Part shown: positions 10,085 through 64,000 of the stretch, in pieces
Numbering within the stretch: position 1 is the stretch's first letter
How the letters are laid out: the number at the start of each line of letters is the position of its first letter
Source: Tubulanus polymorphus
Taxonomy: Eukaryota > Animalia > Nemertea
Assembly: GCF_964204645.1 (NCBI RefSeq)
Contig: NC_134027.1
Span: forward strand, 15,718,485-15,782,484
Length of the DNA: 64,000 bases
Reading direction: 5' to 3'
Notes under the pieces: generated by a model
Databases searched by the model: none
What the model saw: only the letters and a program-made list of their open reading frames with translations
Told to the model about the DNA's origin: nothing
Position numbers and translations under genes: made by a program

Positions 10085-10188
10085 TTAGCCTTTGTTATAT
10101 ACAAGTAATTGTAAAAGTGGGGTTTCAGACCAGAGGACGAGAGGACGACACACCACTCATCACCACAAGTAACTTTTCGGCATAATAA

Positions 10189-10874: not shown

Positions 10875-11007
10875 ATATTATCAATATTAAAAGTGTGAGT
10901 AAAGTGTGAGTAAAATAATTTAGATTTTCAATATTAAAAGTGTGAGTAAAATAATTTCGATTTTCAATATTAAATATGTGAGTAAAGTGTGAGTAAAATA
11001 ATTTCAT
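10875..11007. repeat. AAGTGTGAGTA subrepeats matching the subterminal region of Polinton B
   Basis: TCAATATTAAAAGTGTGAGTAAAGTGTGAG matches the reverse complement of ~36648-36675. It is joined directly to the broken MCP gene. Confidence 0.7.
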
Positions 11008-11586
11008 ATATTCGATAATTTATAACCTATATCTTTAACAACGCTGGATATTACTATTTCATTAACAGGAGCAAATGTTATCTCAAATATAATATAAGTC
11101 TAATGGAATTTTATATTTGCTTCTATAAATCTTTTTTATTGAATTATCTTTAGCATTAGTAATTATTGCATTATTAGCTTCAGATCTTAATTTATTATGG
11201 TTTTCTGATTGGATACCTTGAAATATCATATTATTTCTATTTTCTTTTGTTAACCATACATTTTTGTAATGGATAAATAGATTATAATCATCTAATGAAA
11301 AAACTGTTTCCGGACCAATCTTTACAGTTAATTTTTTAATCAAATATATTCCAACATTATCAACAACATAATTATTATCATTGCCTGTTACTTTTATATC
11401 AGCTGATAAATAAATACTATTTGGAACATAAAAAGTATTTTGTGTTAATCGAGGGATTCTAACATATAAAGTTTCATCAGGATTAATATTAGAAGGATTA
11501 CGAGTAATTATATGATGAGATCTTTCTGCCTTAATAGCCTTATATATTCTAGAATTCTTAGAAGGATTTATGTAACTCCCACTCAT
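11008..11586 (-). pseudogene. Major capsid protein, copy A (5' half)
   Basis: About 90% aa identity to the N-terminus of 29823-31070, with an internal deletion and truncation. Confidence 0.85.
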
Positions 11587-11604
11587 TTATTTAAGAAAAA
11601 AAAT

Positions 11605-13317: not shown

Positions 13318-13332
13318 TTATATAATAAAAAA

Positions 13333-17545: not shown

Positions 17546-17611
17546 TTAATAACAAATTTTTATTAAAATTGAATTATAGCCGATTACCATGTAATAATCC
17601 TTTTCATAATC

Positions 17612-19684: not shown

Positions 19685-19810
19685 TTAGCTTGTTTGTAGG
19701 ATATCATTGGAAAAAGGTAGTTTTTGCCAGATGTTTGAAAGAATGTTTTGAGGTGAATTTTGATGCGGGGTTGGCGGTGTTTGTTTTGAAAATAAAGAAT
19801 ATGCGTGGTC
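18928..19810. repeat. 424-bp tandem duplication spanning a PolB/LINE junction
   Basis: 18928-19351 repeats at 19387-19810 (offset 459), separated by a 35-nt filler. Confidence 0.92.
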
Positions 19811-20718
19811 TAAATATATGCTTTTTCTGATGTTGACTAAAGGAGATAAGTTTTCCGCGGTGAAGTAATTAGAAAAGTAATGGGGTGAAGATTTGATGGT
19901 GTTTTGAATAAAAAGTGCAGTTTTAAGGATGAGGACATCATTGATTTTGAGGATTTCAAGATTTTTGAAAAGTGGGTCTGTGTGTGCAGTGTACTTAGAG
20001 TTGGTGATTATTCGAACAATCTTCTTTTGGATTGGGAGGCATTTTTTATTATAAGGCGAGTGGCCCCAAGCCAACAAGCCATAGTTCAAATGAGGATAGA
20101 CTAAGGTGTAGTAAAGAGAAAGTAAATTTTGTGTGTCTAGGATGTTTTTAGTTTTGTTTATGATACCAGTAATTTGTGAAATTTTCTTGTGTATTTTGTC
20201 GATATATGGTTTCCAGTTCAGATTTTCATGTATTGTCAAGCCGAGGAAATCTATTTGTTTTACTCTTTCAAGTTCAAAGTTGCCTATTTTGATTTGTTGT
20301 ATGTGGTTTATGAATGGTCTTCTCTGATAATTATGAAATATGATATATTTAGTTTTGTTCAGATTAGGGGTTAGTTTATTAGCGATAAGCCAGTCATTCA
20401 ATATGTTTAGGTCATAATTAATATACTGTATGAGTGTGTTGAGGTGTGTATGAGATACAATGCAATTTGTATCGTCAGCGAATAATATGTACTTCATGTT
20501 TACCGTGGAGGCATAGATATCATTGATGTATATTAGAAAGAGAAGTGGACCTAGGATGGAACCCTGGGGTACACCGATGTGTGAGGATAGTGTAGAGGAG
20601 TTGTAGGATTTGTACGAAACGTATTGTTGACGATTAGAAAGATATGAGGAAAACCAATCTCTTGCTATTCCTCGGATGCCGTAATGTTCAAGTTTATCTA
20701 GTAGTATATCGTGGTCGA
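19685..20718 (-). mobile_element. CR1/L2-group LINE RT fragment
   Basis: DHDILLDKLEHYGIRG, GVPQGSILGPLLFLIYIND, LFADDT, FLGL, LYYTLVYPHLNYG and HTDPLF motifs. Confidence 0.92.
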
Positions 20719-20770
20719 TATTTCAATATTCATATTTGTGTGAGTTAGATTTTTAAACATTAAAAGTGTT

Positions 20771-29822: not shown

Positions 29823-31070
29823 ATGAGTGGGAGTTATATAAATCCTTCTAAGAATCATAGAATATCTAATGCTATTAAAGCAGAAAGATCACATCATATA
29901 ATTACTCATAACCCTTCTAATATTAATCCCGATGAAACTTTATATGTTAGAATCCCTCGATTAACACAAAATACTTTTTATGTTCCAAATAGTATTTATT
30001 TATCAGCTGATATAAAAGTAATCGGTAATAGTAATAATTATGTTGTTGATAATGTTGGAAGATATTTGATTAAAAAATTAACTATAAAGATTGGTCCAGA
30101 AACAGTTTTCTCATTAGATGATTATAATTTATTTATGCATTATAAAGATTTATGGTTAACTAAAGAAAATAGAAATAATATGATATTTCAAGGCATCCAA
30201 TCAGAAAACCAAAATAAATTAAGATCTGAAGCCAATAATGCAGTAGTAACTAATGCTGTAGATAATTTGATAAAAAAGATTTATGGAAGCAAATATAAAA
30301 TTCCATTAGACTATGAATTGATAAATAATAATGCACCTTTATATAAATACGCAATTCAAGAAGATGTTATATTCGAAATAACATTTGCTCCTGTTAATGA
30401 AATTGTATTATCAAGTGTTGTTAAAGATATGAGTTATAAATTATCGAATATATGTTTACAATATGATTCAGTAACTGATGGAAATATTTCAAGTATAATT
30501 CAAACTCAATACAATCAAGGATTTTCATTATTATATGATTATATTGATAAATTTAAAACTGTAACTATTAATGCAAATGATGAAATTATTAATGAGAATA
30601 TTCACTTCCCAAGAAGATCTATTAAAGGTATATTAATATTTTTTACCATTGCAACATATACTAATGGTGCAATAAATGTTGATAATTATTATAATCCTGA
30701 AATAACAAAAGTAGAAATAACTATCGAAGGAATAGCAAATAAAATATTTTGTCAAGGAATGAGAATGATTGATCAATGGCCAGAAATTAGAAAACATTTT
30801 ATGAATGAAAAAGTAAAATCATCTGAAAATTGTAATATTAATCAAATTGATTATTATACCGGTAATAAATATGCATTATGGTTAGAATTTAGAACAACAG
30901 AGGATAATTCATTACATGGTTCTGGAATAAAATTACAAAACACTAAAGATGGAATACAATTATTCATGACAAAGAAAAAAGGAAGCCTAAATTTCAAAAT
31001 GCACATTTATATTATATCTGACGCGCAATTAAATATTGTAAATTCACAATTAGATAGTGTTATGTATTAA
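29823..31070 (+). CDS. Major capsid protein (double jelly-roll), intact
   Basis: 415-aa beta-rich ORF with N-terminal NPSNINPDETLYVRIPRL...VPNS.YLSA and C-terminal HGSG and DAQLNI, typical of animal Polinton capsids. It sits in the structural block. Confidence 0.8.
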   Translation: MSGSYINPSKNHRISNAIKAERSHHIITHNPSNINPDETLYVRIPRLTQNTFYVPNSIYLSADIKVIGNSNNYVVDNVGRYLIKKLTIKIGPETVFSLDDYNLFMHYKDLWLTKENRNNMIFQGIQSENQNKLRSEANNAVVTNAVDNLIKKIYGSKYKIPLDYELINNNAPLYKYAIQEDVIFEITFAPVNEIVLSSVVKDMSYKLSNICLQYDSVTDGNISSIIQTQYNQGFSLLYDYIDKFKTVTINANDEIINENIHFPRRSIKGILIFFTIATYTNGAINVDNYYNPEITKVEITIEGIANKIFCQGMRMIDQWPEIRKHFMNEKVKSSENCNINQIDYYTGNKYALWLEFRTTEDNSLHGSGIKLQNTKDGIQLFMTKKKGSLNFKMHIYIISDAQLNIVNSQLDSVMY

Positions 31071-32854: not shown

Positions 32855-33466
32855 TTATTTTATAAATTTATATTCATATGGAAATTGTAATCTCAGTAAT
32901 AATTTTGAACCTTTATTATTCTTTAATTTATTCATATATTCATCATGTAATTCAGTAGGTATAATTTGATTTTCTTCCAATGATTGTTGCATAGATTTTT
33001 TATCTTTGTTATAAAATAAAACTAGAAATCGAATGTTTTCTCTAAAGTCTTTAACAATTGAATTATATTTTTGATTTAAAACCCATGTTGTTATCCCGAA
33101 ATGTCTTCCAGAGAAAGCTAAATAACATAACTCACTTTCTCTCACTTTTGAATCATGTAAATTTGCGCAATCATCTATAATGAATAATGTATTTGATCCT
33201 TTATAAGTATCAATTGCTATTTTAATAAAATTATCTAAATTTTCTTTTACTGTTTTAGGATTTAATATAATAAACTTTTTTATCTTAACTATATCTCTAT
33301 TATATGTTTTATTCATTTCATAAGTAGGACAGAATAATATTATATTATCAAAATGATTCTTATAAATAGTTTCTAACAAGTCTAATATGAAATGTGTTTT
33401 ACCACAATTGGTTACTCCAGTTATTAACATATTGTGCGGTTCAAATATGGATAAATCTTTATTCAT
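32855..33466 (-). CDS. A32/FtsK-family genome packaging ATPase, intact
   Basis: Walker A GVTNCGKT, Walker B LFIIDD, arginine finger GRH and sensor LNQ. Confidence 0.92.
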   Translation of the reverse strand: MNKDLSIFEPHNMLITGVTNCGKTHFILDLLETIYKNHFDNIILFCPTYEMNKTYNRDIVKIKKFIILNPKTVKENLDNFIKIAIDTYKGSNTLFIIDDCANLHDSKVRESELCYLAFSGRHFGITTWVLNQKYNSIVKDFRENIRFLVLFYNKDKKSMQQSLEENQIIPTELHDEYMNKLKNNKGSKLLLRLQFPYEYKFIK

Positions 33467-34577
33467 TTATTATTTTAATTTTACTAGATAAAATCCATTC
33501 ATTAAACTTATCATCGTATCCTTTATATTTCACCAACGAATATTTTTTTCCTTTAAGAGTTTTTGTTTTCAATACTTTTTCTATTTTGTATTCTATTTCA
33601 TCTGGATTTGGTACAAGTGATAATTCTTGTTCATAGAAATAACCTAATATTTCTTCATCTTTTAAATCTTCTAATTTATAAACAAATGGTTTAGTTAATA
33701 TTATCTTTTTAATCTTGAATATTTCTTCAGTAAAATTTGGGGTATAACCTTTATAAAAGGTTTTTCTATATTTAGATATTCTTACGTGTTGTCCAATTTT
33801 AAATTTAGGTTCTCCAAAATCATGTGTAACAAATGCTCCATATAAATTATTTCATACTATTTCCGAATTATCTTCTTTTCTAGCTTGTATAGGTTTCATA
33901 TTTATAGAACAATGTTTAGAATTATTATAACCTTTCACTAAATCATCTAATACATCGATATATTCATATGTTTCATTAGCAGTAAAATATTTCCACATTC
34001 TAGTTTTCAATGTTTTATTAAATCTTTCTATAATAGATGCTTTTTTATCTGAATGTGTTGAAAAATATTCTACATCGTTATCAGATAATAGTTTTTTGAA
34101 ATGTTTGTTATAAAATTCCTTACCTTCATCAAATTGTATCTTATCTGGAATAGCTTCTTTAAATATTGATTTAAAAGCATTTGTTACTTCTATACCAGTT
34201 TTATTTTTGATTGGAATTGACCATGCGTATCTACTGAATATGTCTATAACATTTAATATCCAGAAATATCCTTTGTTGTATTCTTCTAAGTTCTTCATGT
34301 CAATTAAATCTGCTTGCCATTGTTGATCGATATATGAAACCATAACTTTTCTTGTTAAATAAGTTTTATCCATTTTCTTGTGGATTTGATATGTTGGTTG
34401 ATTTTGTAACCATGATTTTAGTTCACTATATTTTATATCACCGTGTGGGTGCCATACGGCACCATTACCATTTTCATTATCAGATTTAATTTTATTCCAT
34501 AATTCTGAAACGTTAGAATATGATACTTCACTTTCTGGGTTATAATATAAATCTCTTAAATATTGTTCTTTTTTCAT
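33459..34577 (-). pseudogene. Polinton rve integrase with C-terminal chromodomain; single TGA at 33852
   Basis: QADLIDM, IQFDEGKEF and IERFNKTLK catalytic motifs. Beyond the stop the frame reads FKIGQHVRIS...FYEQEL...YKIEKVLK...LVKYKGY...NEWI. Confidence 0.93.
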
Positions 34578-34598
34578 CTTATTTTAATCCATTAATAA

Positions 34599-37007: not shown

Positions 37008-38939
37008 GATAAAATTTTTTGTGTATGTTTGTTTACTATTGGGTTTTTGTTTTGTTCTGTGACTACACGCAAAAGCGATAAAATGGTCCGAGAGTGGTGT
37101 TGTAAGGATGCCCAAGTAATAGTTATGTGAGTTAGTAAATATGTTGTCAATTAGAGTGGCACTTCGGTGAGTGACTCTAGTTGGCAGGGTAATGAGTGGA
37201 GTAAATGAGTTTGTGCTAAGTAATTCGAAAAAAAGAGAGCTTTAATTTTCTTGATTTGTTTTTATCAGGTCAATATTAAAGTCTCCACAGATGAGGATAT
37301 CTGTATTCAAGGAACTGAGTTTAGCGATTTCCGTTTTCAAAGCTTGTAAAAATTGATGGGTGTTTGATGCTGGGGGTTTGTAAACTATTCCAATTATTTT
37401 CTGTGCGTGATTTTCATTTTTTTTCCAAATTTTGTAGAATTTCCATTGTACATTATTATCTGTTGGATTTGAGACGAAGTTACATTCTTTGTACTGAAAG
37501 GTTTTAGAAAGGAAAAGACCTATCCCACCTCCATGGGAATTTCTAGGTTCAGAGATGAAATTATAATTTTTTAGAAGAATTTGAGGTTCGATGATAGAGT
37601 TGAGTTTAGTTTCTTGGACTGCAATCGCGTCAAAAGATAATTTACAGTCAGAATTTAGAATGTTTAGTAAGTTTTGAAGATGGTTGAGTTTGTTCAAAAG
37701 TCCATTGCAGTTCCAGTTCAGGATTTTAAAGTCGGAGTTTTCATAAGGATGCTGTTGGTTTAAAGTTTCCAGATCATAGTAAGGGGAGCTGTTCATTTTA
37801 AGGGATTTTTCAGAGTCATCGGCATTTAGTAATGATGATAGATCTAGACTTTGATTGCTTACTCCATGGTTAGCGAGAATTTTGGATTTAAGATAATTTA
37901 GATTGTCTTGCAGAGAGGGGGTCATTACAAAGAAAGACAGTTAACACAAACGTACTAGTAATTAGCAGTAGATGGCGAGCTCGACTCATTGATGAATTAG
38001 TGTAATAATTAGGGGGTGACACATGAGTAGAATTGATAGAATAATAGTTGTTGTAGGTTGTTGATAGAGTAATTAAAAGCTGATAGTTAGTGTATGGTTT
38101 AAGTATTAAGGCATAGGGAAGAGACACAAGTTAGGTGAAAGATGGAGGATATGAAAATAGAACATAAGTAAATCACGAATATCAAACCATTATATCCATG
38201 TCCAAGTTCAATACTGATCAGTCCATAAATCGTTATTGTTTGTCCATTAGTCCCGAGTATTAGCGATTAAGTAGGTTCATAAGTAGAGATTTTAAGTCTT
38301 TCATATTCATGTTGTTTTCTGATCTTTGGACGTTTCTTGGTCGGCGAAGAGAAGACGGCGGATTTAGAGCGGATTTCCAGGCTAACGCTACCTTGTAAAT
38401 CGAATCCTTATTCACGTGTTTGTTGTCGTAGAGTTCATCACGAGAAATACGATGTTTCACAAAATTAACATTATTTGTCTTACTATAGTTTTCCAATCGT
38501 TGATTCATAGCATCAATTTCCTGATCGGTTTTGTCCTTTCGAGGAAGGAGCGACGCAATTTTCACTTTGGCGTTTGGCCACGTTTTTTTAACGGTCTCGA
38601 TGGATTTCTTCATCTCCTGGAGAACTTTTGCATCTGTTTTTGTGTCCCAATCGTTTGTACCGCAGTTGATGAGTACGGAATCAGGGCTGCACGGTTTTTC
38701 GTTATTCCTTGTCGTAATCACATCCTTAACGTCCGAAAGTGTAGAGCATGGATATACGATCGTTTTTCTGTTTTCCCCGGCTAATCCAGCTGGAGAAACA
38801 AATTTACGATTGCTGTCGGCAATGACGATACCAGTAACTTTGCGAGGTTCAGTAGATGCTAATGATGGTGGATTCTCGGATATTTTCTCTTCTTTAGTTA
38901 TTTTTTCCTTTTCTTTTTCTTCGAGAAGAGTTAATCTTA
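37008..38939 (-). mobile_element. 5' part of a CR1/L2-group LINE (SGNH-type ORF1 C-terminus plus AP endonuclease)
   Basis: ORF1 has IADSN, INCGTND and YDNKH motifs. The ORF2 endonuclease has ILNWNCNGL, AVQET, GGGIGL, VYKPP, GDFN, DNIFTN and SDH. It breaks exactly at the Polinton terminus. Confidence 0.9.
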
Positions 38940-39234
38940 GTTTGACTCACAACTGAGAGGTCGAGGGTTCGAATCCTAGTGAAACCATGCATTACCACAG
39001 TACAGCGCCGGCGCGCAACAATTGTTTTATTAATGAAACAACATGGTGGATAGTTGAAATTATTTTCGGCTTAAATTTATCGCGAGTTTTAGGACTTTAA
39101 TGAATTTCACGAAACCATGATTTCTAAAATGAGTCAATTGATTAATTCTATTCGTAAATCAATTTACGTTGGCTACATTTCCTGAAGATTTCGGGGTCAA
39201 ATCAACGTGATATGGACAGAAATTGTAGGAATTT
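38940..39234 (+). repeat. Dispersed repeat with part of a tRNA-derived head (matches 47873-48167)
   Basis: Near-identical ~295 bp with B-box GGTTCGAATCC. Confidence 0.8.
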
Positions 39235-39380: not shown

Positions 39381-41173
39381 GAATTAGAGCCGTTTTTCGA
39401 CCGAATGAGACGCCATATTGGTTTCTCCGACTCCACAGTCGTGCTAACTACCCCCGAAAACCGTCCTATGGAGCACTCCCACTTTCGGTCAGAGAAAACT
39501 GCGGGGTCGTGGTTTTCGGGAGTGTTACAACTCGTGTATTTTCATATGGATTATTTCAATGAAGCAAGCTAGTGGTTCAGGCATAGCCAGCCATTTCTTG
39601 GATATTTAGGTTGGCCCTTAAAAGGGCCGTTTTGACGGAAGGATGACAGAGGGACTAGACGACTAGACGACATAAAGATCAGTTGCTATCTGATTCCAAA
39701 AGTTGAAATAGGCATGATCACCAAAACGTTGGACCCACATGAATTCGGCTAGGTAATCGGGTATCATCGCGCGATTTGACGGACCAGCCATCGCTTTAAA
39801 TTTCGCCTTGGCTCGCTGCCACATCGCCTCCACACGGTTTGTCGTTACGGCTGTGGCTGGGTCGACGAAGTTGACCGTATGGTTGACTGTGCCGTGTTGG
39901 TACCCCAGCTGGCCAATCTGATTATATGCCTGCCACATATCAGACCATATGGTGGAGCCGGGACGAATCCATCGTTGTATGATTGGCAACAGCGTGGCAG
40001 CATCTCTCCTGGGTACCGGTACAAGGAAACCTTGTTTCGTCTCTGCCTCGTAGCCACCGAATATCCACTGCTCCGCCACGATTCGTCCCTGTTTATATTT
40101 TCGCCGAGCAAAAAGAGATTCGTCTATTTCTACCAGTCTACCTGGTCCACCAAGCTGTGTCGGATTATTTACGAAGTAGGGCACACAGACATCGCGGCAG
40201 AACTGATTCCAATCGACGATGGTATGCTCCGACTGTATTTCAAGCTCGTGCATGGTGTCGGCAACACTCATGCCACGGCTTGAACCAGCACTTCGGCTCC
40301 AGATGTAGGTGAGCCCCAGCAGCTGCCACAAGTGAAGATGCGACTTCTCGAAAAAACTCCCACGTCGAATACTAAAAACTCGCTTGCATCGTCGTGCTGT
40401 ACATCTCCAAGCCACTCCGTCGACGTAACGCGCCATACCCTGTTCTCGGCATTGGCCTCCGCAGTTTGGACACACCATATTATTCGCCAGCAGGCCATGC
40501 TGTCTACACCAGCCGATCGTGTGTTCTCTGTCATCCTTGAAATTCGCACCGATCTGAATCAACGAAACAAAGTCGAACTCTGCCAAATCTGGAACGCGGG
40601 CCATCTTCTCGCAGAAATAAGACGTTATGAACGAATTGAGCAGACCCATGACGACTTATATACTATTCACCCGTGAGAAAATCCAGAAGTCTCACGGCCA
40701 CCAGCACCGGGATTGCCTCATGTAAAGTCTTTGATCCTGGCTTGATTGACATGGGAACCAGTAACCCTTCCGATTTTTGTCACGTACGCAGAAGAAAATA
40801 CATTCAAATTAAAAAATAAAATGCTCTAATTGCTGCAGAAAAAGAATAAACAAGTAGATGATACAAATTATAGCTTTATTTATATTTTTCCAATGTATAT
40901 TACATATGTTCTATTTTTAAGAATCTGGTCACAGTCTGAAAATATCATAAACTCTAATTTAACCGATCCCAATTAGCAAACGATGCGTGGGCGGGTTGCA
41001 GCGCTTGACATGTGTCAATATGCGCGCGTCGCACGTGTCCGTTCGGTGACCGTAGCCGGAGCGCTCCATACGTGGGAGTGCTCCATAGGACGGTTTTCGG
41101 GGGTAGTTAGCACGACTGTGGAGTCGGAGAAACCAATATGGCGTCTCATTCGGTCGAAAAACGGCTCTAATTC
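39381..41173 (-). mobile_element. Merlin (IS1016/ISXO2-like) DNA transposon
   Basis: 102-bp TIRs at 39381-39482 and 41072-41173 enclose the transposase. No TSD is evident. Confidence 0.92.
39663..40649 (-). CDS. Merlin/IS1595-family DDE transposase, intact
   Basis: Zn ribbon CPNC...WRC...C, SIRRGSFF, VEIDES, IWSDMW.AY, VNH..NFVDP and TNRVE.MW motifs. Confidence 0.93.
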   Translation of the reverse strand: MGLLNSFITSYFCEKMARVPDLAEFDFVSLIQIGANFKDDREHTIGWCRQHGLLANNMVCPNCGGQCREQGMARYVDGVAWRCTARRCKRVFSIRRGSFFEKSHLHLWQLLGLTYIWSRSAGSSRGMSVADTMHELEIQSEHTIVDWNQFCRDVCVPYFVNNPTQLGGPGRLVEIDESLFARRKYKQGRIVAEQWIFGGYEAETKQGFLVPVPRRDAATLLPIIQRWIRPGSTIWSDMWQAYNQIGQLGYQHGTVNHTVNFVDPATAVTTNRVEAMWQRAKAKFKAMAGPSNRAMIPDYLAEFMWVQRFGDHAYFNFWNQIATDLYVV

Positions 41174-50911: not shown

Positions 50912-53900
50912 TGTTGAGGATTTATGTATTATGATTTATGTATCATATGTTCATGTATTATACACAGTTGTAACTGCTTTGCGTAGTTGACTGATTTTCT
51001 GTAACATAGTTCAATGAGCATGACTGTACGTACTATAAGTAGCCAAACTGCAAATAAAATCATTATTATATATCAAGTCTATACCAGAGTTCGTGTCTGT
51101 AGTCTTGTTGAGGACCTAACCTAAGGGAAAACAGCACATTTTGGTCCCTCGAACCGTTCAGAATGGCAGAAATCTTGAAATCTAGCAACTATCAGGCGTT
51201 GGTGAGAAAAAGAACTGCACAGAGAGCTCAATCTACTAAGATCATCAACGTAGCCGACGAGATCACGAACAGCCAAACCTGCCAGCCACCAGACATCAAA
51301 AAACTTCAACGTAGTTCATGTCAGCTACAAGACAAAATCCGAGAACTCGATATGATTAACGAATCCATGTTGGAGATGATCGACAACGATGAAATGTACA
51401 TGAAAGTGTCGGAAGAGGCGGAGGATGTAATCTCCAAAGTGAAAGACCGTAAGTTGTTTTACGACCAATATGCTAATGCGCGAACGTCTCCAAACTGTCC
51501 GTCAGATATTAACAGTTCAAACACCCGAATTAAAGTTAATCTCCCGAAATTAGAACTTACCACATTCAACGGAAATGTTATGAAATGGTTACCATTCTGG
51601 GACTCTTTCAATGCAGGCGTTCATTCAATACATTCGATTCCGAATGTTCAGAAATTTCAGCATTTGAAACCATTATTGTCCGGTCCAGCTCTTGATTGCA
51701 TTCAAGGGTTGACACTAACTGACGCAAATTACATACATGCGATTGATATTTTGACTCGACGTTTTGGCCAGGAACATAAAATCATCGACAGCCATATGCA
51801 AGCGTTAATGTCCGAACCAACACCTTCGTATAACTCTTTCTCGATGAGGAAATTCGCAGATAACTTTAAGTGTCACGTACGAGCGTTAGAAAACCTTGGC
51901 GATATGTCATACCGAGATATGTTAGTTTCTTTAATCTGGAATAAATTGCCACCAGAATGCAGAGGTAATATTGTTCGCTTTCATGGCAATAGAAGATTTT
52001 CCCTGAATGAAATACGACAATTTCTGTTTAATGAATTAGATATTTTAGAAGCTGGAGCAGGGAAGCGAGAATCATCAGTTTCAACATTGTTCACTAATCA
52101 GAAACAACCTGTAAACGTATTCCGAAATCCTAGGAATCAAAATTTTACTGATAAATCGAGATCTGTGCATTGCACATATTGTAAGGCTAAAGACCATAAC
52201 TCAGAAAACTGTTCGAATTTGAAATCTGTGGATGATAGGGTTGCTCATATAAAATCAAATAAATTATGTTTTAACTGTTTAGGTCCGCATCTCATATTAG
52301 CTTGTAAATCTCGATATAATTGTAGATTGTGTAAAAGAAGACATCACACTAGCATTTGTGCATCAATATATCAAGCTAAATCAAGAAATAATCAAGTACT
52401 TGATAATCCAATTGTATCTTCTCATCAATTTCAGGCTTCTCGACAGTTGTTGGCTACTAATACTTCAAATGCTCATTCGAACGTTGACAGGGATCAGTCG
52501 CGTTTACAGCAACAGGGTGATTCAATGTTGAACTCGGTTCAGTCTCATCAACCGACTGCAGACGTATCCTTATCCATTGGCACTGAGCGAAAATCAGTGT
52601 CTACGTTATTCACAAAAGGTCATAGTACAATACTTTTAAAGACAGCAATAGCGCCCGTACTCAACCCTGAATATCCTCAACTCCGTCCACTCGCTAACAT
52701 AATTTTCGATGACGGTTCTCAGAGATCTTTCATTTCACATGACTTGTCGCAACAACTCAATCTTCAACCATTGAGGCAAGAAGAACTTAACATTTCTGGT
52801 TTTGGTTCAACGAACTCTGGTCATCAAATTCTTAGTGTAGTAAATCTTCACATTGTTTGTAAAGATGGCAGCTTGGTACAATTAGAATTATTAGTATTTC
52901 CTACGATATCGACTCCAATTGACGTTAGTTCGATAACACAAGTACATAATTACTCTCATCTTCGTGATCTCGAATTAGCACATTCCCCAGGAAATGGTAC
53001 CTTCACAATCCAAATTTTGATAGGTGCAGATAATCACTACAAAATAGTTGACGGTCATTGTATTAAAGATGTGAATTCTAATTCCCTGACTGCCGTAAAA
53101 ACAAAACTAGGTTATGTCTTATCTGGTCCAGTAGAATATCCAAATCCTAGTTCTCAATCAATTTCCATGATTAGCTTAGTAGAGAATCATTCCGAGCAAA
53201 ACCTGAATGAGTTTTGGAAAATAGAATGTTTAGGGATAGATGATAAAATAGCAATCCTGGAAAGTGAAACTGATTTCATGCAACGTTACTCCGAGACCAT
53301 TATTCAACAAAACAATGGTCGATACATAGCTCCGTTTCCTTGGAAAATTGAGCATGAATCACTGCCTACCAACTATGATATATGCATGACTCGCACTCGC
53401 AAAACAGCTCGACGTTTAGGCAAAGATCCAGACATGTTACGTTTGTATTCCAAAATTATCCACGAACAAGAATCCCTCAAAATCATTGAACGAATTCCTC
53501 TTCACGAAAAAGTTCGTTATGATGGAAAATGCCACTTTATTCCTCATCACTCCGTGTTTAAAGACTCGCCTACAACGCCGATTCGCATCGTGTATGACTG
53601 CAGTTGTCATGAAAATTCTGACTCTCCTAGTTTGAACGACTGTCTTGAGCCCGGCCCTGCCTTACAGAATGACATTTCATCCATTCCTTTACGCTTCAGG
53701 TTATTCGAGTATGCCGCCATTTGTGATTTAGAAAAGCCTTTCTTACAGATTTCTTTAGGTAACGACAAAGACTTCACTAGATTTCTGTGGTTGTCTGATC
53801 CAAGCGATCCTGAAAGTCCATTCGTTGAGTATCGGTTCTGTGTTGTTTTGTTTGGTGCAACTTCCTCCCCGTTTATACTAAATGCAACGATTATCAAACA

Positions 53901-56900
53901 TCTACTACAATACGATTCTACTGTTTCCAGATCCATGCTTTCTAACGTTTATGTTGATAATTTCGGTGTATCTGTTCCGTCATCCGATGAATTGGACAAC
54001 TATTATCTTGAATGTCGCGAATTAATGAATGATGCAAGATTCAATCTTAGATCTTGGGCTTCTAATTGCGAATCTACACATGGACTTGCTGTTTCCGATG
54101 GGGTCTCTGACAATTCTACAACTGTCAAATTTCTAGGTTTAAAGTGGAACGTTCATTCCGATAAACTCAGTTTAATATCGAAGCCCTCTTTGACTGCACC
54201 AGATGAGCTCCTAACCAAACGTGAAATCTTGAGTGCAGCCAGCAAGATATATGATCCACTTGGTCTGCTTACCCCTGTAACTATTCGCGCGAAAATATTC
54301 ATGCAAAAACTCTGGTCAATGGGCGTAGAATGGGACGAGCCACTGAATGATTCAATTGTTGCTGAATGGTCGAAACTATCCATGTGCTTACATACTATAA
54401 GTTCTACTTTTTCTATTCCCAGATGCCCGGATCCAATTTTTCGTACTGATGTATTGAATTTACATGTCTTTGCCGACGCATCAGCAAAAGCGTATGGGGC
54501 ATGTGCCTATCTTTGTTGCAATAGAAGCTCGATTTCAAATTTGATCATCGCCAAAAGTCGAGTAACTCCGGTAAAGACAGTGTCTATTCCGAGACTAGAA
54601 CTGTGTGCAGCTGTTGTTGCTTCGAAGCTAGCAAAACACATCATTGAGAGTTTAAATTCTGAGATCAATCCACATGTTCATCTTTGGACGGATAGTCTGG
54701 TTACTTTAGGGTGGATCCGAGTCAAAGTCATCAAAGAATTGGTCGGTACAAATCCATGGAAATACGTTCCATCTCAAGATAACCCGGCTGACATTCTCAG
54801 TAGGGGCTTCAACGGTCAATCTTTGAATGAAAGCCAACTATGGTTAAAAGGGCCCAGCTGGCTTACCATTACTGATAAATGGCCCTCAAATCCTGGAGTA
54901 AAGGAAACCGTTTCTGATGATACGGAGATATCTTTGTTGAGCAGAGATACATTCGTCTACCTCGAGCCTATTATTGATATTTCTCATTTTTCTTCACTTC
55001 GCACATTGCTACGCGCGACTGCGTATGTTTTTCGTTATATCAATTGTCTGAAGTCAAAGATTAGAAACACAGACGAATTAACAATATCGGAGTTACATGC
55101 ATCTGAGTTATTCCTTGTAAAATCAGTTCAGAATACTCACTACAACCATGAAATAAAATGCCTCAGTGAAAACCTACCTTCTAGGCAGTATCCAATCATC
55201 AATCAATTGCGTTTGTTTTTGAAGGACGGCATACTCCGATCTGCAGGTCGTATTCATAATGCTCATATTCCATTTGAGACGCGATTTCCAATTCTATTGC
55301 CGCCAAACGATCCATACACGAAGTTAGTCGTTTGGGATAGTCATAATCGGTCATTCCATCAGGGAGTCAATCAAACTGTGACGGTAGTTCGAAAAAAATA
55401 CTGGATTCCTAGAGTACGACAAGTTGTCAAATCTGTCATTCGTCCATGTGTTACATGCAAAAAAGTGATCGGAAAATCTTACATGGCACCTCAAAGCCCC
55501 CTTTACCTTCACTGCGAGTCTCTGAAGCACGTCCTTTCGCTATCTGCGGTGTGGATTTCACAGGGGAAATCCTGGTCACTGATCAACCTGAGAAAATGTA
55601 CATATGCCTATTTACTTGTGCTGTCACAAAGGCTCTTCACTTGGAGTGCGTGTCCAATTTATCTGTTGAAACTTTGATGCATACTTTCCGCCGTTTTGCA
55701 AGTCGTCGAGGCACACCTCAGAAAATGATGTCGGATAATGCATCAACTTTCTGCTCCGCATCACAGGAAATAAAGAATCTACTGACCTCACCTAGCTTAA
55801 CATATAAACTGCAATGAAAATGTGGAGTGGTCGTTTATTCCAAAACGAGCCCCTTGGATGGGCGGATACTGGGAGAGGCTCGTTGGTATCGTCAAAACAT
55901 GCTTGAAAAAGGTACTCGGCCGGTCTCGTGTCAATAGTACTGAGTTGATAACAATCGTCACTGAAATAGAGAGTGTCGTAAATGACCGTCCATTGACATG
56001 CGTGTCATCCAACATTACTGATCCCGACCCTATCACCCCTGCACATTTCCTAACAGGACACATGATACGAAATTTGCCACATGTTGAGATTGATGAGACT
56101 GGATCAAAAGATCCCGAATTTATCTTAACGAAACAAAATGTTTCCAATAGATTACGAAAAATGAGTTTTATTTTCCAACAGCTGTGGAGAAGGTGGCATT
56201 CTGAATATTTACTTTCGCTCAGAGAAAAGTATAAATCCGTGTCAGGTAAATACAATGATAAAATCCGGGTCGGAGATGTAGTTCACATATACGATGAATC
56301 GCCGCGAATAAAATGGAAACTCGGCGTTGTTATGGAAATACATACCGGGAAAGATAACCTTCCGCGATCAGCTACGGTGAAGACTGCTGTCGGTAGGACC
56401 AACAGACAAATCGTTAAACTTATACCGCTCGAAATAACGTGTACGCCGGACTTCGTATCTTCCGTACCAGGAAATATAGATGCTTTTCGTCCAGAGATCA
56501 ATCGTCCGCGTCGTCTTGCCGCCGAGGAAGCGTCCGTGAGAATCAGGAATATTCTCCAACAAGACGATTGACATTTTGCGCCCCAGAGGATGCGTATTAT
56601 AATTTGTGCAAAGATACGTGTGATTGATTTGTGAAAGTACGAAGTTTTTGTGAAATCACGTATATTATTTGTGTTTATATTTTTTGTAATTTTCATTTTT
56701 CGGCCCGGAGAATGTTGAGGATTTATGTATTATGATTTATGTATCATATGTTCATGTATTATACACAGTTGTAACTGCTTTGCGTAGTTGACTGATTTTC
56801 TGTAACATAGTTCAATGAGCATGACTGTACGTACTATAAGTAGCCAAACTGCAAATAAAATCATTATTATATATCAAGTCTATACCAGAGTTCGTGTCTG

Positions 56901-56939: not shown

Positions 56940-57879
56940 TAGGCCTAGTTACACATTTTAAAAGCATATTTCTTTTTGCATCAAACTAAAAGCGGCTTTG
57001 TTGAGGAAAACTAAAAGCGGCTTTGTTGAGGAAAAGATTCGTTTGAGTCGTAAAATTTATAGCCTAGAACCAATTTCTTCGTCAAAGCGTGATGCGCAAT
57101 TTTGACTGGGTCTTATTTCCACGTGGTAGTGGACAGAAAATTTGAATAGGCCTAAATAATAGAATAATCTTTCTTAGGTTTCATGATAAAGATGCAGCAT
57201 TAACATAGATTAATGCTTATCTTTTACAATTAGGCTTATGTTTCAAAGGGAAACGCCCACAGTTGGTCGAACAGGGGTTAGGCATTGATGGTAGAGGGGC
57301 TGTGTGTGTGAAACAGAGAGATAAAAATGCACGGGAACGAGTTTATCGAGTGGAGCTTATTATTCCATCAGGGATAGTGATTAGTGTACTATAGTCATGT
57401 TATATATCAAAATGTTCCTTATTAGTTCCGCTGCATCGCTAAAAACAAATTGAGATAGGTTTCCCTGCATTTTTTTACATATTACATCACTTACAACGAT
57501 AAACGTCCGTCGCCGACTGAAAAATTCACAAAAACTTCCGCACTGAGAGCGCCACCGCACCAATTCAAATTGGATCGGAAACCCTCCAGCGATGCACTCT
57601 ATGATCTTTAGAACCTGTCTTTGCTGACTGGGAATAAGATAATTCAATTTCAATTTCAATTAATTCTTTATTGTTCCGTAACGTAGTTAAACGTTATAAG
57701 ATTAAGTACAATAAAGATAGGGGGATAAAATATAACATTTTACAGATAAAGATAACAAAAACAATAACAGTTTAATATACATATATACACGATGTAGACA
57801 GGTTTTCAGTAAGTGAATCAGTGATAGTTTAATTAATGGATACTGCGACGTAACACTCAGATTTCAGATTGTTTTTTTT

Positions 57880-60800
57880 TCATGAGTTAGACCCTTTCTC
57901 GATGTTTTTCCCTAAATATTTGGCCATTTCTATAGAGGACATTATAGTTACAAATTTGACTTTATCATTTACATTCGACATGCTAGGATATTGATTATAA
58001 AATTTATTCAACAGATCTGTTCTTAAATTATCAAATTTTGCACACTCCATTACAAAGTGGAACTCATCTTCTACTACTCCGCATCTGCTACATAAGCATT
58101 CTTCGGTGTTGTCATATCGCGGAAAGAGAGAATCGCGGAATTTTCCAAAAACGCGGAATTTCTTCATTTTTACTATAAATAGTAAACGGGTTTTCCCACC
58201 GGGATACCCACTGTCGGACAGGGCACCGGACCCAGGTTTTCAACACCGGGAATTAGTATTTGATAATTTATTATATCGCCAGTCAACAACTTAACGATAC
58301 TGTTCCAAATAATGGAGAACCTAGGCAATACGTGCTTTGCGAATTCAGTGATACAGAGTATCGCTGCATTAACTGAAGGAATACAAATCGATGGTACGTA
58401 AACGTAGGATTTGTGATGACACCATGGGTCATTCTCCAGGACTCACTTCCGAGTTAAGATTTGACTCTGGTCTCTGGATTTAAAACATTGGAAATGAATT
58501 GATTCTAAGTAACACATAGTTAACTCACAACTGTGGAACTGGATCGATGTCAGACGAAAATAAATAGACATTATGTATATTTCATTCTGGCTTAGGATTG
58601 TTCATGCGTGTTGTGTGTCTACATTGTTGTTATAAGCGAAATAATGTGGTTTATCTTTTATAATTAAATGATATGAAAGATTAATATGTAATAGATGAAA
58701 TCTAAGTGACGGACGCTTCGTCACTGCAGCTTGATTTAATTTTTACGACTAAGATTAAGAAATCATAACGATTCGAAAACAACCTCGTTCACGGAGTGTA
58801 ACAAAACCACTCAAAATAATGTCAGTGACTAAAGGAACACCGAGAAAATTAATTGTTGTCAATGAAACTGCCAAGAAACTCTTACTATAACTCTGGTGGT
58901 TATAAAAGTTAATTATACGCGAAAATGCATCAAATCGGTAGTCTTCCTAATTCACCGAGTACTGCTAAATTGGTAGTTTTTTTGTTTACATGCAATATGA
59001 ATTTGCAGAATTTGACAGTTAATTTATTGAGTAGGTCATCCTTTTCCATTACTTCCTCAATTGGGAATGTACCCTTGTTTTTGAATATTTTCTTAGCAGT
59101 GCTCGTTTTTGGTAACCAAATCTCACAACCATATAGTAGGATGGGTGTTACCAAAGTGTCAAACAGCTTTAACGATACATTGGGTGGACAATCTTGAATA
59201 CCAATAATTTTTTGAATACTGAGCATGGCTCGGTTAGCCGATTTGAATAGATCTTCTCTAGCTTTGTTAAAACACCCTGATGCTGTAAATATAAGTCCTA
59301 GATATTTGTACTCTTTTACTAATTCAACATTAATTCCATTTATATAAAAATGTGTGTTAATTGGTATATGGCCTTACTCTTTTCAATGTTTATTTCTAAA
59401 TTCCATTTTTGACAGTATTCTGCAATTTTGTCAAGGCAGTTTTGAAGACCATGTTTAGAATTCGACACTTATACAAGATCGTCGGCATATAATAGATAAT
59501 TTATCAGTATGTCGCCCAGTGGAACTGGGTCACAAGACTCATCGAATATAGACATAATATCGTTAATAAAAATGTTGAAAAGCATCGGACTCAGAGTGTT
59601 TCCTTGTTGTAACCCAATATTTGAGCTGAATTTGCTGGATGTTTGGTACTTGTTAAGTTTCACTCTACAGGTGATATTCCGATACATACTTTCAATGATG
59701 CGAATGAAGTGATCTCCTAATTCTAATTGTTTCAATTTGTATATTAGACCCTGGTGCCAGACTGAGTCAAATGCTTTTCGGAAATCAATGAAACAGGTAT
59801 AGAGTTTATTGGATGAGGATAATTTCTTATCGACAAGTCTCTTTAGTGTGAACATATGATCTGTGGTCCTACATTTAGGCATGAAACCAATCTGCTGAGG
59901 TACAATCAAATTGTTTGATTTCAAGTGCTTTGTTAGTCTGACATTCAGGATATGACAAAACACTTTACCGAGACAACTGCTTAAGGTAATTCCCCTATAG
60001 TTATCGGGCAATGATTTATCGCCCTTTTTATAGAGAGCAATCAGACCTTCAGCCCATGAATCTGGATAGAAGCCGCTAGAATAAACGTAGTTAAATAATT
60101 TTGAAAGGGGCTTGACAAGATAGTCTTTCCCGTACTTTAAAATTTCGTTGGTTAATCCATCAGGCCCTGGTGACTTGTTGTTCTTCAGGGCTGATAGAGC
60201 TTCCGAGATTTCTCTTTCCGTGATAAGAATGTCCAATTCAGTAGAAGTAGGTAAATGATTTGGTAAACCCCCCAGGTCTGCTCGGTTTAGTGAGTTTGCC
60301 TTTGCTAAATTTATAGACTTGAAATGGTCAATAAATATTTCCGGATCACAGATATCATTTTTATTCATTGTTTTCCCTCCATCGTTCTTTAACTCTTTGA
60401 TTATATTCCAATAGTCACGGGGTCTGCCTTTTAGTGAGGTAAGCATTGAAAGCTTGGATTGCCGAAATGCATTGCGTTTTACTTTAAGAAGTTTGCGGTA
60501 TCGTCTTTTCAGTATGAAATATTTCTCTCGGGTGACCCCATTAGTTTGCTTATGCAACATTTTCCCTGTGGCACGCAAATCATTCCTTAGAGGCGAGCAT
60601 TCTTTATCAAACCAACACTTTTCGCAGTTTACCTTAGTATTCTTTTCCATGCGTTTTTTCTTGGGCATTTTGATATCTTTATGTAGTATGGCTACAAATT
60701 CATCAACTATGTTGTTCACAGTGTGAATATCAGCAGTGTCTGAGGACCAGATATCTTTGTTGCATAGGTTATCTAATTCAATGATGATATCTGGGTTTGA

Positions 60801-61757
60801 TAAATACGAGTCTATTTCTTCTGGGTCTTTTAGTTTAGCAAACTGACTATTGTAAAAATCTGTATAAGTTGGTGGGTTATAGGCTCCCTCCAGAGGTCCA
60901 ACTGTTTCGTATTGCAGGCCTAATCCTATGGCACAATGATCTGAGAGCTCACTAAGTTGGCTATGGACATGAAAGTATTTGATAAGAGGGAAGATTTCAT
61001 CATTAATTAGAGCCAGATCTACAACACTACTTCCATTCCATTGGTGACAGGTATATTCACCAAAGTGGTCACCGGGGCACCGACCATTTAGAATACATAA
61101 ATTATTGGACATACACATTTCAACTATATTCTTGCCCATTTTGTTAATCGTTCTATCTTTGCTCCTCCTTATGGGCATTTCATTGACTGGTATGTATAAT
61201 TCGTTTAATACTGGTATGTATTCACTGTCATTTAAGTTAACATTATTACATTCATTTATAAGTCAAGTCCGAGCATTAAAATCCCCTAATAATAGGATAT
61301 TTCCAAGACTTGAGTATTTGGTGCACCCTAATTCAAGTAACTGAAAGTTCTCGTCTGAATTCTTCGAACCAAATGTAGAATTAATTGGGCTTATGTAACT
61401 TGCAGCAATAAATAAAGGTTTCTGTTGGATATCATGACTTGTGGTAGGGGTATATTTTAACCAAATTATTTCAGACGAAGACCTTTCAATTACTTTCACA
61501 TTATTCTTTAAACTATTTTTACATAAAATCACTATTCCACCATAGTTTCTCTTTGCATTTATACTACGTTTCCTTGTTAGATGGATGCTAAAATAATCCG
61601 ATATTTGTGGAAACGAGTCTTCATCGGTGTGCGTTTCGGTGAGACAAACAATGTCATAATTTTCTATCTGTTTTAAAAAATAACTGTCATTTAACTTGTT
61701 AGTGTACTGGTTAGACAGTCCTTGGGTGTTCCACGCACCTATGTTGAGCATATTCAC
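57880..61757 (-). pseudogene. LINE ORF2 (AP endonuclease, reverse transcriptase, C-terminal CCHC), disrupted
   Basis: AWNTQGL, LTETH, GDFNAR, SDH, KSPGPDG, NYRGITL, FIDFRKAFDSV, QGNTLSPMLF, YADD, and C-terminal CSRCGVVEDEFHFVMEC. It has stops, frameshifts and a MITE insertion. Confidence 0.93.
58104..58683. mobile_element. Partial second copy of the MULE-like element, inserted in LINE ORF2
   Basis: Reverse complement of ~2574-3150, including one TIR. Confidence 0.88.
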
Positions 61758-61779: not shown

Positions 61780-63849
61780 CTAACCAAACTCTCGTCTACG
61801 AGTGAAAAGGTTTAAGGCTCGTCGCACTGAGCTTGCAAGATTGTTCGCAAAACGTTTTATACCATCTCTATCGTTAATATGCACTGGATCTCGGTAAAAG
61901 TGTTGGCGATTGTTGAGGTTCTCGTGGCGGCATACGAAAGTGTTTTTGTCGAATTCCGCATGGCTTTCAATAGTCGCATTGAATATACGTGACTGTATGT
62001 CGTATCTGTTATGATCAAATCTAGGCGGCACTAGCGATGTCACTAATTTAGTCTCCGGAAATTTGTTTTTGATTTCATTGACAAGATCAATATAACGGTC
62101 CACACACTTATCGGCACTATTTGTGTTACGGATATCATTGGTCCCTACATGAAGGACAATACACGACGGATTTTCACTGATATCCCTGACAGCGCTAGAT
62201 ACTTCATTTATTGTGTACGCTGTTAGTTTCTCGACATCACACGAATCGTTAACAAAACGGTCAGGATCAATGAGCTTCGTATTAGAATCACCTATGATAA
62301 CCACTCGTCCACGCTCACGACGACTACGAGTGCTGCGGCTACGCTTGTCGCCATGGTGAGATGTTCGTCGACTTCGTTTATGGACGACTTCGAATGACGC
62401 ATGACGATCACTAGTTTCCGGACAGTCGTATACGCTTTCATCACTGGGACTATCGGTAGTCAGTGGGTTACGGTGAGAATGGGCATCCGGACTGCGCGAC
62501 TCATTCAAGTTCTCTACGTTCGATTTTTCACGCGAGACCCTTTCCTGCAGGTCTTTCACCTCGTTTCTCAAATCATTGTCATCATTAGATTTCTGTAGGA
62601 TGTCTTTTATCCTGCAGGCGTTCCTGTCGACAACTTTTTTCAGGTGGTCGACGCCCTTTTCCAAGTTCGGTAGCGGCATTGACAGTTCAGAGATACGGTC
62701 GATTCGTATGATCGCGTCATCAATTTTAGTATGTATGGATTTTAGTTGAGGAGTCTGTACGCATTGGTTCACTTGTTGAGTTAGGGTGACTATGGAAGCC
62801 TGTAGTGACTTAAACATATCCAGAATCTCGGCACCATCTAGTATTGTAGAGCTGGAGTCAGTCTGGCAGGCAGCATTAGCAGAGAAGTCGTGGATTTCCA
62901 CAGACGTACTGCCATCTTTAAATGACTTCATATCGGCAGGTTCGGAAGTTTGGGCGTCATCGGCTTTTCGAACCAGGTTAGACGGGTTACATAGCGGGCA
63001 GATGTAGATCTCATGTATGTCGGACGTTATCCGGGCCATGTCTTGTTTCGTGAGGCCAGTACATATATTATGCGTCCAACTTTCACATAAAGAGCATTGA
63101 ACCATCTGTCTGTTATCTGGGTTTTGGCAAACGGTGCAACTAGACTTTTGAGGAAGTTTTTTGGGTCCATTCTGGGGCGACTGGTGGCCTAACTGGCTCT
63201 GTTTGGGTTTATTCAGTTTTTCCAACATTTTCGGGAAGGTGTCACTCACCCAGAGTAGGTACGAGTTCCCTTGGATATGCAGCTTGGGAGTCTTTTTCGT
63301 TGACCCTCTATACAGAGTTGCGTAAATGGTACCCAATTCGTTGTTCTGGCTGTCAGTATACATTCCAGTAAACTGAAGACCGTGATCCCCGCGGTCTATC
63401 GGATTACCATAGCTAGCACGGAGTACCTCGAGGATCGACTTCGCTTTTTCTTTGCATAGCTCTATTACCACTGACTGTGTTTTCTCACTTATCACAACCT
63501 TGCGGCTTAACAAACCTAGTTCATCATCAGATGAGTTTACCGTAGTTCTGCTGCTGGATCTCCTCTCAGATTTCTGGCCTTGCTGGAGTATATGGTCTCT
63601 CAGTTGGGTGTACGCAGAGTTTAGTTTCTGGAACGAGGTGGTGGCATCAGATCTGTTGCACTTATCAGGGTGTATTTCTTTAGCAATGGAGATGTATTTG
63701 ATCCTAACATCATCAAGGCTTGAGGGCAGCTTATCGAGTTCTAAGATTTCGAGAAGTTCCGCGATGTTACTTCCGGGTTCCATGGGCGCCGCCATATTGG
63801 AATTTTTATGCAATCCCGATGGAAAAGTTTCACAATAAATTTCACACAT
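61780..63849 (-). CDS. LINE ORF1: DnaJ domain, alpha/beta domain, PHD finger, coiled coil and SGNH esterase-like domain; intact
   Basis: LEILEL...DDVRIKYISIAKEIHPDK...ATTSFQKLNSAY (J-domain); C4HC3 PHD CTVC...QCSLCESWTH..C...YICPLC; IIGDSN, LHVGTND and DPVH (SGNH). The likely start is Met19 at 63795. Confidence 0.9.
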   Translation of the reverse strand: MCEIYCETFPSGLHKNSNMAAPMEPGSNIAELLEILELDKLPSSLDDVRIKYISIAKEIHPDKCNRSDATTSFQKLNSAYTQLRDHILQQGQKSERRSSSRTTVNSSDDELGLLSRKVVISEKTQSVVIELCKEKAKSILEVLRASYGNPIDRGDHGLQFTGMYTDSQNNELGTIYATLYRGSTKKTPKLHIQGNSYLLWVSDTFPKMLEKLNKPKQSQLGHQSPQNGPKKLPQKSSCTVCQNPDNRQMVQCSLCESWTHNICTGLTKQDMARITSDIHEIYICPLCNPSNLVRKADDAQTSEPADMKSFKDGSTSVEIHDFSANAACQTDSSSTILDGAEILDMFKSLQASIVTLTQQVNQCVQTPQLKSIHTKIDDAIIRIDRISELSMPLPNLEKGVDHLKKVVDRNACRIKDILQKSNDDNDLRNEVKDLQERVSREKSNVENLNESRSPDAHSHRNPLTTDSPSDESVYDCPETSDRHASFEVVHKRSRRTSHHGDKRSRSTRSRRERGRVVIIGDSNTKLIDPDRFVNDSCDVEKLTAYTINEVSSAVRDISENPSCIVLHVGTNDIRNTNSADKCVDRYIDLVNEIKNKFPETKLVTSLVPPRFDHNRYDIQSRIFNATIESHAEFDKNTFVCRHENLNNRQHFYRDPVHINDRDGIKRFANNLASSVRRALNLFTRRREFG

Positions 63850-64000
63850 GAATTTACGACGATCGACGAATATTACAGACCAGAACGTTGCTCGGTTTTC
63901 TTATCTTTCTATAGCACATAGCCTTTTCTGCCTACGTTGGGGTAAACAGCATTAAATTGTAATTTTCTCCGGACACGTAGTTTGTTGTGATCACACGTGT

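What the first reader, a model, noticed from the sequence alone, without database searches (positions are those of the whole stretch)
61780..63849. LINE ORF1 with an N-terminal DnaJ (Hsp40) domain: a retrotransposon that may recruit Hsp70
Seen: residues ~32-87 have the J-domain pattern (ILEL..., basic helix II, intact HPD at 63664-63672, F..L..AY..L). They are in frame with a PHD finger, a coiled coil and an SGNH domain, immediately upstream of an APE-RT ORF2. ORF1 is fully open although ORF2 has several lesions. Established: PHD and esterase domains occur in CR1/L2 ORF1 proteins, and HPD J-domains stimulate Hsp70 ATPase, a function exploited by polyomavirus T antigen. I do not know a J-domain as a standard ORF1 module. 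Inference: the element may bring its own co-chaperone for RNP or condensate remodelling, RT activation, or interference with chaperone-dependent piRNA loading.
Basis: partly seen in the sequence, partly recalled or inferred. Interest (0 to 1): 0.82.

Follow-up and report, generated by a model that had tools for sequence, protein, structure and literature searches.

The report
LINE retrotransposon clade with J-domain ORF1
A jumping gene in this animal genome carries, at the front of its RNA-packaging protein, a chaperone-adaptor (J) domain that a wide group of distantly related proteins also keeps, and that likely lets these elements enlist the host's Hsp70 chaperone, although no function has been tested.

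Summary
ORF1 (61780-63849, minus strand, open) has a Pfam DnaJ domain above cut-off with HPD, then a PHD finger, a likely coiled coil and an SGNH esterase, just upstream of a broken APE-RT ORF2. It is not a one-off capture. Diverged copies in the same species keep HPD. A search using only the domain behind the J-domain found 153 protein clusters; 78 of 89 hits with room upstream carry a J-domain, 63 with HPD. One lineage, including an amphioxus protein, lost HPD. The layout fits RTEX-type ORF1s better than CR1/L2 (RT phylogeny not testable). The unannotated domain behind the J-domain is predicted to resemble the RNA/DNA-hybrid-binding TBP-like domain of RNase H3 (moderate support). Likely mechanism: Hsc70 recruited onto the element's own RNP. 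Against: this family's helix II is unusually uncharged, and ORF2 linkage is shown only for this copy. Ten literature searches found no report; Repbase was not searchable. This scan earlier noted J-domains in Gypsy, Penelope-like and plant retroelements on other DNA, but not in this LINE group.

The parts
61780..63849 (-). ORF1, 689 codons, fully open; likely start Met19 at 63795
   Evidence: start inferred from relatives that begin a few residues before the J-domain
63586..63765 (-). J-domain (aa 29-88)
   Evidence: Pfam DnaJ 34.7 bits; model pLDDT about 90 and J fold
63664..63672 (-). HPD motif (aa 60-62)
   Evidence: sequence; only a silent change listed in sibling reads
63211..63507 (-). 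Conserved alpha/beta domain (aa 115-213), predicted TBP-like / RNase H3 N-domain fold; marker of the family
   Evidence: no Pfam family for the window's domain
62989..63138 (-). PHD finger (aa 238-287)
   Evidence: Pfam PHD 27.2 bits
62485..62817 (-). Likely coiled coil (about aa 345-455)
   Evidence: weak Pfam coiled-coil hits; aligns with the coiled-coil-like region of relatives; inferred
62305..62379 (-). Arginine-rich stretch (aa 491-515, 12 of 25 residues R/K)
61804..62310 (-). SGNH esterase with GDS (S522), GTND (N571) and DPVH (D654, H657)
   Evidence: Pfam GDSL_2; weak match to the ZfL2-1 esterase 4c1b, E 0.006; motifs read from the sequence
58900..61751 (-). ORF2, APE endonuclease and RT, broken by stops near 61264 and 59470 and by small deletions
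   Evidence: sibling reads or contigs differ at 59470, 59366, 60034 and 58931
58104..58896 (.). Nested high-copy repeat(s) interrupting the 3' end of ORF2
   Evidence: depth spike and joints that skip it; 58104-58683 is 97% identical to window 2574-3150
57646..58103 (-). ORF2 C-terminal Cys/His knuckle, 3' UTR, AATAAA and a short (ATTGAA)n-like tail
   Evidence: left boundary from read ends at 57645
63850..64000 (-). Part of the 5' UTR; the 5' end lies beyond the window
   Evidence: reads and contigs run on past 64000 without loose ends

Best explanation
This is a dead copy of a multi-copy APE-type LINE, likely of the RTEX group, whose ORF1 protein begins with a J-domain that is conserved across a wide group of related proteins and likely recruits host Hsc70 onto the element's own ribonucleoprotein particle. 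Shown: the domain order J, alpha/beta domain, PHD, SGNH; its conservation; the LINE context of this copy. Inferred: ORF1p multimerises through the coiled coil and coats the element RNA. Each subunit then presents an HPD J-domain that triggers Hsc70 ATP hydrolysis locally, so Hsc70 loosens or uncoats the particle, or remodels the bound ORF2p reverse transcriptase into an active state. The adjacent TBP-like domain is predicted to bind the RNA/DNA hybrid made during target-primed reverse transcription, which would place this step at the insertion site. The PHD finger would tether the particle to chromatin, and the esterase would bind membranes as in ZfL2-1.
For: Pfam and fold. Same-species copies: 87 reads at varied identity, no joints in the region, only a silent change in HPD; over aa 19-143, 13 silent versus 14 replacement sites, pN/pS 0.31, P 0.003. 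A search with the middle domain alone gave 153 clusters at 50% identity. Of the 150 listed, 89 have at least 60 aa upstream; 78 of these carry a J-domain and 63 have HPD. Pfam confirms DnaJ in 27 of 31 long hits, 17 of them with SGNH too. Close relatives are multi-copy on different contigs. HPD is intact in 19 of 21 relatives from the first search that cover the domain. Middle domain: Z 7.6, rmsd 2.3, 69 aligned to the A. aeolicus RNase H3 N-domain; profile-profile probability 76%, score 28.8 against a maximum of 17.5 in 40 shuffles. Y180 (93%) and G194 (98%) align with the Tyr and Gly of the RNase HIII motif; in T. ammonificans RNase H3, Tyr43 and Gly52 contact the hybrid (PMC4132731, passages; my mapping is by spacing). 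Precedent: Hsp70-system activation of a hepadnaviral RT (PMC2094093, abstract and outline).
Against: No functional data. The window's helix II has net charge 0, while 61 of 62 HPD-bearing relatives are +1 or more; the R/K at position -7 (83% of relatives) is Ile53 here. Its J-domain sits on a long branch. A group of 12 rows on the middle-domain tree, including the Branchiostoma belcheri protein P0112, and a second group of 3 lack HPD although several have long open frames, so HPD is dispensable in some lineages. No genomic context was obtained for any relative, and no hit contains ORF2-like sequence. The middle domain matches CYTH proteins (Z 7.7) and KA1 domains (Z 6.6) about as well as RNase H3, and a shallow profile gave no signal. 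The pN/pS test ignores transition bias, and for the J-domain alone P is 0.05-0.075.
Confidence: 0.5

Rival explanations
1. The J-domain recruits Hsc70 against a host target rather than the element's own particle. Tethered to chromatin by the PHD finger, it would dismantle a silencing complex, much as polyomavirus T antigen uses its J-domain on host complexes (recalled).
For: J and PHD occur in one chain in 23 of 150 hits. Fast evolution of this family's J-domain and NADAR domains in two relatives fit a host-conflict role. Unchecked earlier notes report J-domains in other retroelement classes.
Against: No host target identified. The J-domain's constant neighbour is the putative hybrid-binding domain, not the PHD finger, whose distance from it varies.
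Confidence: 0.22
2. The domain works as an Hsp70-independent helical interaction module (pseudo-J, like Tim16), at least in this family and in the HPD-less lineages.
For: HPD-less lineages keep a Pfam-detectable J fold (P0112, P0116, P0150, P0176). The window's helix II has lost its net positive charge.
Against: HPD followed by K or R is kept in most clusters less than 50% alike, which is hard to explain without the Hsp70 contact.
Confidence: 0.18
3. The related proteins are host genes or belong to other element types, and only this copy sits in a LINE.
For: No DNA context could be fetched for relatives.
Against: They are long uninterrupted frames with the ORF1-type coiled coil and SGNH layout, occur as many near-identical and often truncated copies on different contigs, and match RTEX ORF1 dimensions.
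Confidence: 0.07
4. One-off capture of a host DnaJ exon by a single dead copy, or a chance match.
For: None.
Confidence: 0.01

Closest known systems
RTEX-clade LINEs of Branchiostoma floridae and Saccoglossus kowalevskii (ORF1 boundaries in PMC3905857 Table S1)
   Same: ORF1 of about 640-720 aa, coiled coil from about aa 270-350 to 380-460 and a C-terminal esterase from about aa 470-550; here about 345-455 and 514-682. A B. belcheri protein belongs to the family found here.
   Different: That table annotates only coiled coil, arginine-rich motif and esterase; the first 270-350 aa are unannotated. 'DnaJ' does not occur in the main text or in the supplement searched (one supplement file not searched). 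Clade membership by RT was not tested.
Type IV (esterase) ORF1 of CR1/L2 elements, e.g. ZfL2-1 ORF1p (PDB 4c1b)
   Same: Coiled coil, arginine-rich stretch and SGNH esterase with catalytic residues; weak sequence match.
   Different: About twice as long here, with J-domain, TBP-like domain and PHD. PMC4120745 (passages and Table 1, 448 Jockey-superfamily elements) lists no DnaJ. PMC3905857 states that esterase ORF1ps in Repbase lack structural RNA-binding domains; the middle domain may be an exception.
Viral J-domain proteins (polyomavirus T antigen)
   Same: An N-terminal HPD J-domain on a multidomain protein of a genetic parasite; fold match to 1faf, Z 7.0.
   Different: Different partner domains; the ORF1 J-domains group apart from 20 viral J-domains (support 86/97, not starred).
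N-terminal TBP-like domain of RNase H3 (Pfam DUF3378)
   Same: Predicted fold (Z 7.6) and aligned Tyr and Gln-Gly motifs.
   Different: About 18% identity, insertions, no RNase H catalytic domain attached, no Pfam DUF3378 match; binding untested.

Membership tests
J-domain proteins (Hsp70 co-chaperones) | DnaJ profile match above the curated cut-off | tested here: met
   34.7 versus 27.8 bits
J-domain proteins (Hsp70 co-chaperones) | HPD in the loop between helices II and III, J fold | tested here: met
   model helices aa 45-59 and 69-95 flank HPD; Z up to 8.8
J-domain proteins (Hsp70 co-chaperones) | Positively charged helix II | tested here: inconclusive
   R49, K51 and K57 present but net charge 0; relatives mostly +1 to +4
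J-domain proteins (Hsp70 co-chaperones) | Stimulates Hsp70 ATPase | not testable with these tools
   needs a biochemical assay
APE-type non-LTR retrotransposon | ORF1 followed by APE-RT ORF2, simple-repeat tail, dispersed copies enriched for 3' ends | tested here: met
   read depth rises from about 10-20 over ORF1 and 5' ORF2 to about 40 near the 3' end
RTEX clade | Long ORF1 with coiled coil and C-terminal SGNH esterase | tested here: met
   layout matches PMC3905857 Table S1
RTEX clade | RT domain groups with RTEX reference elements | not testable with these tools
   no labelled RTEX RT sequences were available
CR1/L2 clades | RT domain groups with CR1 or L2 references | not testable with these tools
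   no references; the ORF1 esterase ends near aa 680 versus 230-460 in the CR1 rows of Table S1
RNase H3 N-domain (TBP-like) | Fold and remote profile similarity | tested here: inconclusive
   Z 7.6, tied with CYTH; hhalign 76% with a deep profile, 1% with a shallow one
RNase H3 N-domain (TBP-like) | Binds RNA/DNA hybrids selectively | not testable with these tools
   needs a gel-shift assay as in PMC4132731

The most novel reading that the evidence does not exclude
A large, old branch of invertebrate LINEs encodes an ORF1p that is its own Hsp70 co-chaperone, fused to an RNase H3-type RNA/DNA-hybrid sensor, so that host Hsc70 is aimed at the element's particle exactly where reverse transcription begins. 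Chaperone-driven uncoating would then be an encoded step of LINE retrotransposition, and J-domain capture a strategy that several retroelement classes reached independently.
Probability: 0.3. Interest if true: 0.85.

Novelty: new variant of a known kind. Interest (0 to 1): 0.7.

Why it matters
How ORF1p is removed from LINE RNA so that reverse transcription can proceed, and what chaperones do for retrotransposons, are open questions (background knowledge). An element that encodes its own J-domain makes this testable with one point mutation, and natural HPD-less lineages provide a comparison. The middle domain would be a structured nucleic-acid-binding module in a class of ORF1 described as lacking one. 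The family will also inflate DnaJ gene counts in invertebrate genome annotations (inference).

Tried and rejected
No whole genome is held, so copies were examined through sequencing runs. No RNA holder was listed. Word-indexed search with aa 25-300 found 0 of 1622 candidates; the shorter-length search found 1 of 320. Single-sequence folding was useless (pLDDT 35). Metagenome scans found no relative (77 motif matches, all chance). Viral-contig scans gave only generic J-domains or nothing. The protein atlas gave no result. A predicted complex of the J-domain with an Hsp70 gave no verdict. Foldseek gave no match at E 0.001 or better. The middle domain has no Pfam or PDB sequence match. The shallow profile against RNase HIII was within the shuffle range. 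The RNase HIII set was collected with a recalled motif after the fold resemblance was seen, so that test is not blind. Literature: ten searches showed no report of a J-domain in a LINE ORF1; I saw most hits as listings only. The one paper with both DnaJ and RTEX uses DNAJB9 as a nearby gene name. The RTclass1 paper (PMC2829327) was not held and Repbase entries could not be read, so an earlier remark there is not excluded. Rejected: one-off capture; chance match; CR1/L2 as the closest group (on layout only).

Full report
1. Observation. Window 61780-63849 (-) is one open frame of 689 codons. Pfam finds DnaJ at aa 34-86 (34.7 bits, cut-off 27.8), PHD at 238-287 and GDSL_2 at 558-660, each above its cut-off. 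HPD is at 63672-63664. PDB sequence hits for the J region are DNAJC5 and DNAJB12. A model of aa 19-223 built on 20 rows (pLDDT 78, pTM 0.74) shows a J-domain, a disordered linker and a second well-predicted alpha/beta domain (aa 115-213). ORF2 begins at 61751, with endonuclease and RT matches. It has stops, small deletions and a nested repeat at 58104-58896, and ends in AATAAA and a short ATTGAA-like repeat near 57646. The 5' end lies beyond the window. The neighbours (BEL/Pao, Polinton-like, ISXO2-like elements) suggest an invertebrate animal genome (inference).

2. Copies in the same species. In a DNA run of another sample, depth over ORF1 is roughly flat at 11-27, including the J-domain, and rises toward the 3' end of ORF2. 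All 46 reads at 59470 differ from the window at the stop codon, so that lesion is particular to this copy. On 63420-64000, 87 reads were laid (18 at 99% or more, 32 at 95-99, 24 at 90-95, 13 under 90) with no joints. The only listed change in HPD is silent (12 of 18 reads). Over aa 19-143 there are 13 silent and 14 replacement sites (pN/pS 0.31, binomial P 0.003, transition bias not corrected); for the J-domain alone 5 and 6 (P 0.075). The indels best supported by raw reads sum to 6, 6 and 24 bases, in frame; a 1-base deletion appears in contigs only. Copy number could not be derived.

3. Distant relatives. One fragment, P0002, shared the J-domain and a PIDRG motif. A two-row profile then found seven longer proteins; P0003, P0008 and P0009 span J to SGNH at 21-23% overall identity. 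Their clusters hold up to 16 near-identical members on different contigs, and HPD is intact in 19 of 21 that cover the domain. To avoid selecting for the J-domain, I searched 1.84 billion representatives with the middle domain only: 153 clusters. Of the 150 listed, 61 have under 60 aa upstream and cannot be judged. Of the other 89, 78 carry a J-domain by a profile built from viral J-domains, and 63 have HPD. By eye, six of the remaining 11 are diverged J-like helices and five look like artefacts or out-of-frame starts. Pfam confirms DnaJ in 27 of 31 hits of 600 aa or more (one repeat artefact, P0043, left out), 17 of them with SGNH, and NADAR in two. On a middle-domain tree of 72 rows, HPD loss is clustered (6 changes versus 17.6 shuffled): a group of 12 rows that includes P0112 from Branchiostoma belcheri, a group of 3, and scattered single rows. 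Six ORF1 J-domains form one side of a branch against 20 viral ones (86/97, not starred), compatible with one acquisition; the window's is long-branched. No DNA context was obtained for relatives, so their ORF2 linkage is inferred.

4. The middle domain. It has no Pfam or PDB sequence match. Its predicted fold matches CYTH proteins (Z 7.7), the N-domain of RNase H3 (3vn5, Z 7.6, rmsd 2.3, 69 aligned, 17% identity; 4py5, Z 6.3) and KA1 domains (Z 6.6); such Z values can reflect a common arrangement. Against 26 Firmicute RNase HIII N-domains (three checked as DUF3378), a 6-row profile scored within shuffles. A 122-row profile gave probability 76% and score 28.8 versus at most 17.5 in 40 shuffles. 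Y180, Q193 and G194, among the best-conserved positions, align with the Tyr and Gln-Gly of that family. PMC4132731 (abstract and passages) shows the N-domain binds RNA/DNA hybrids, weakly but selectively, with Tyr43 and Gly52 among the contacts; the mapping to Y180 and G194 is my inference from spacing. This is a moderately supported lead.

5. Mechanism. Most likely (0.5) the J-domain recruits Hsc70 in cis to remodel or uncoat the ORF1p-RNA particle or to activate ORF2p, near the hybrid formed in reverse transcription. Every functional step is inferred. That HPD J-domains stimulate Hsp70 is established knowledge; Hsp70-system activation of a viral RT is in PMC2094093 (abstract and outline). 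Rivals are Hsc70 aimed at host silencing complexes (0.22) and an Hsp70-independent pseudo-J role (0.18). The latter is strengthened for this family by a helix II of net charge 0 (61 of 62 relatives are positive) and Ile53 where 83% of relatives have R or K.

6. Comparison. The layout matches RTEX ORF1s of amphioxus and acorn worm in PMC3905857 Table S1 (passages and supplement part 1 read), where the first 270-350 aa are unannotated. PMC4120745 (passages and Table 1) lists no J-domain. PMC5408684, PMC11203168, PMC12477816 and PMC8557442 have no 'DnaJ' in the main text (term counts and passages). PMC3753637 mentions a DnaJ homologue among L1 RNP proteins (passage). Ten searches found no report of this fusion. 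Repbase entries and PMC2829327 could not be read, and supplements of most listed papers were not seen, so a prior remark there remains possible. Earlier unchecked notes of this scan describe J-domains in Gypsy, Penelope-like and plant retroelements and NADAR in LINE ORF1s; none concerns this family.

7. Verdict. A real, conserved and apparently undescribed ORF1 architecture in a known kind of element: new variant of a known kind, interest 0.7.

Noticed in passing
window about 7900-36300: Polinton/Maverick-like endogenous element(s): protein-primed DNA polymerase B (21239-23158), A32-like ATPase (32855-33466), integrase (33852-34583) and a 415-aa capsid-like ORF without Pfam match (29823-31070; label is my guess). 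Several ORFs recur in decayed form on the opposite strand at 7900-19700.
   Followed up: partly
window 37242-38946 and 19685-20722 (-): LINE pieces: an SGNH-type ORF1 end (38260-38946) followed by an endonuclease, cut upstream near an ISXO2-like transposase (39663-40655); an RT fragment at 19685-20722. No J or middle domain was detected there.
   Followed up: partly
window 51112-56571 (+): BEL/Pao LTR retrotransposon with frameshifts.
   Followed up: no
window 58104-58683 and 2574-3150: A high-copy 580-base repeat present twice in the window (97% identical, inverted), one copy inside this LINE's ORF2.
   Followed up: partly
proteins P0133 and P0172: Two family members carry a NADAR domain as well as the J-domain.
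   Followed up: no
proteins P0112, P0114-P0116, P0120, P0127, P0129, P0131, P0142, P0150, P0176, P0180; and P0096, P0105, P0108: Two lineages with HPD-less J-like domains; the first includes Branchiostoma belcheri KAI8495381.1, annotated 'hypothetical protein'.
   Followed up: partly
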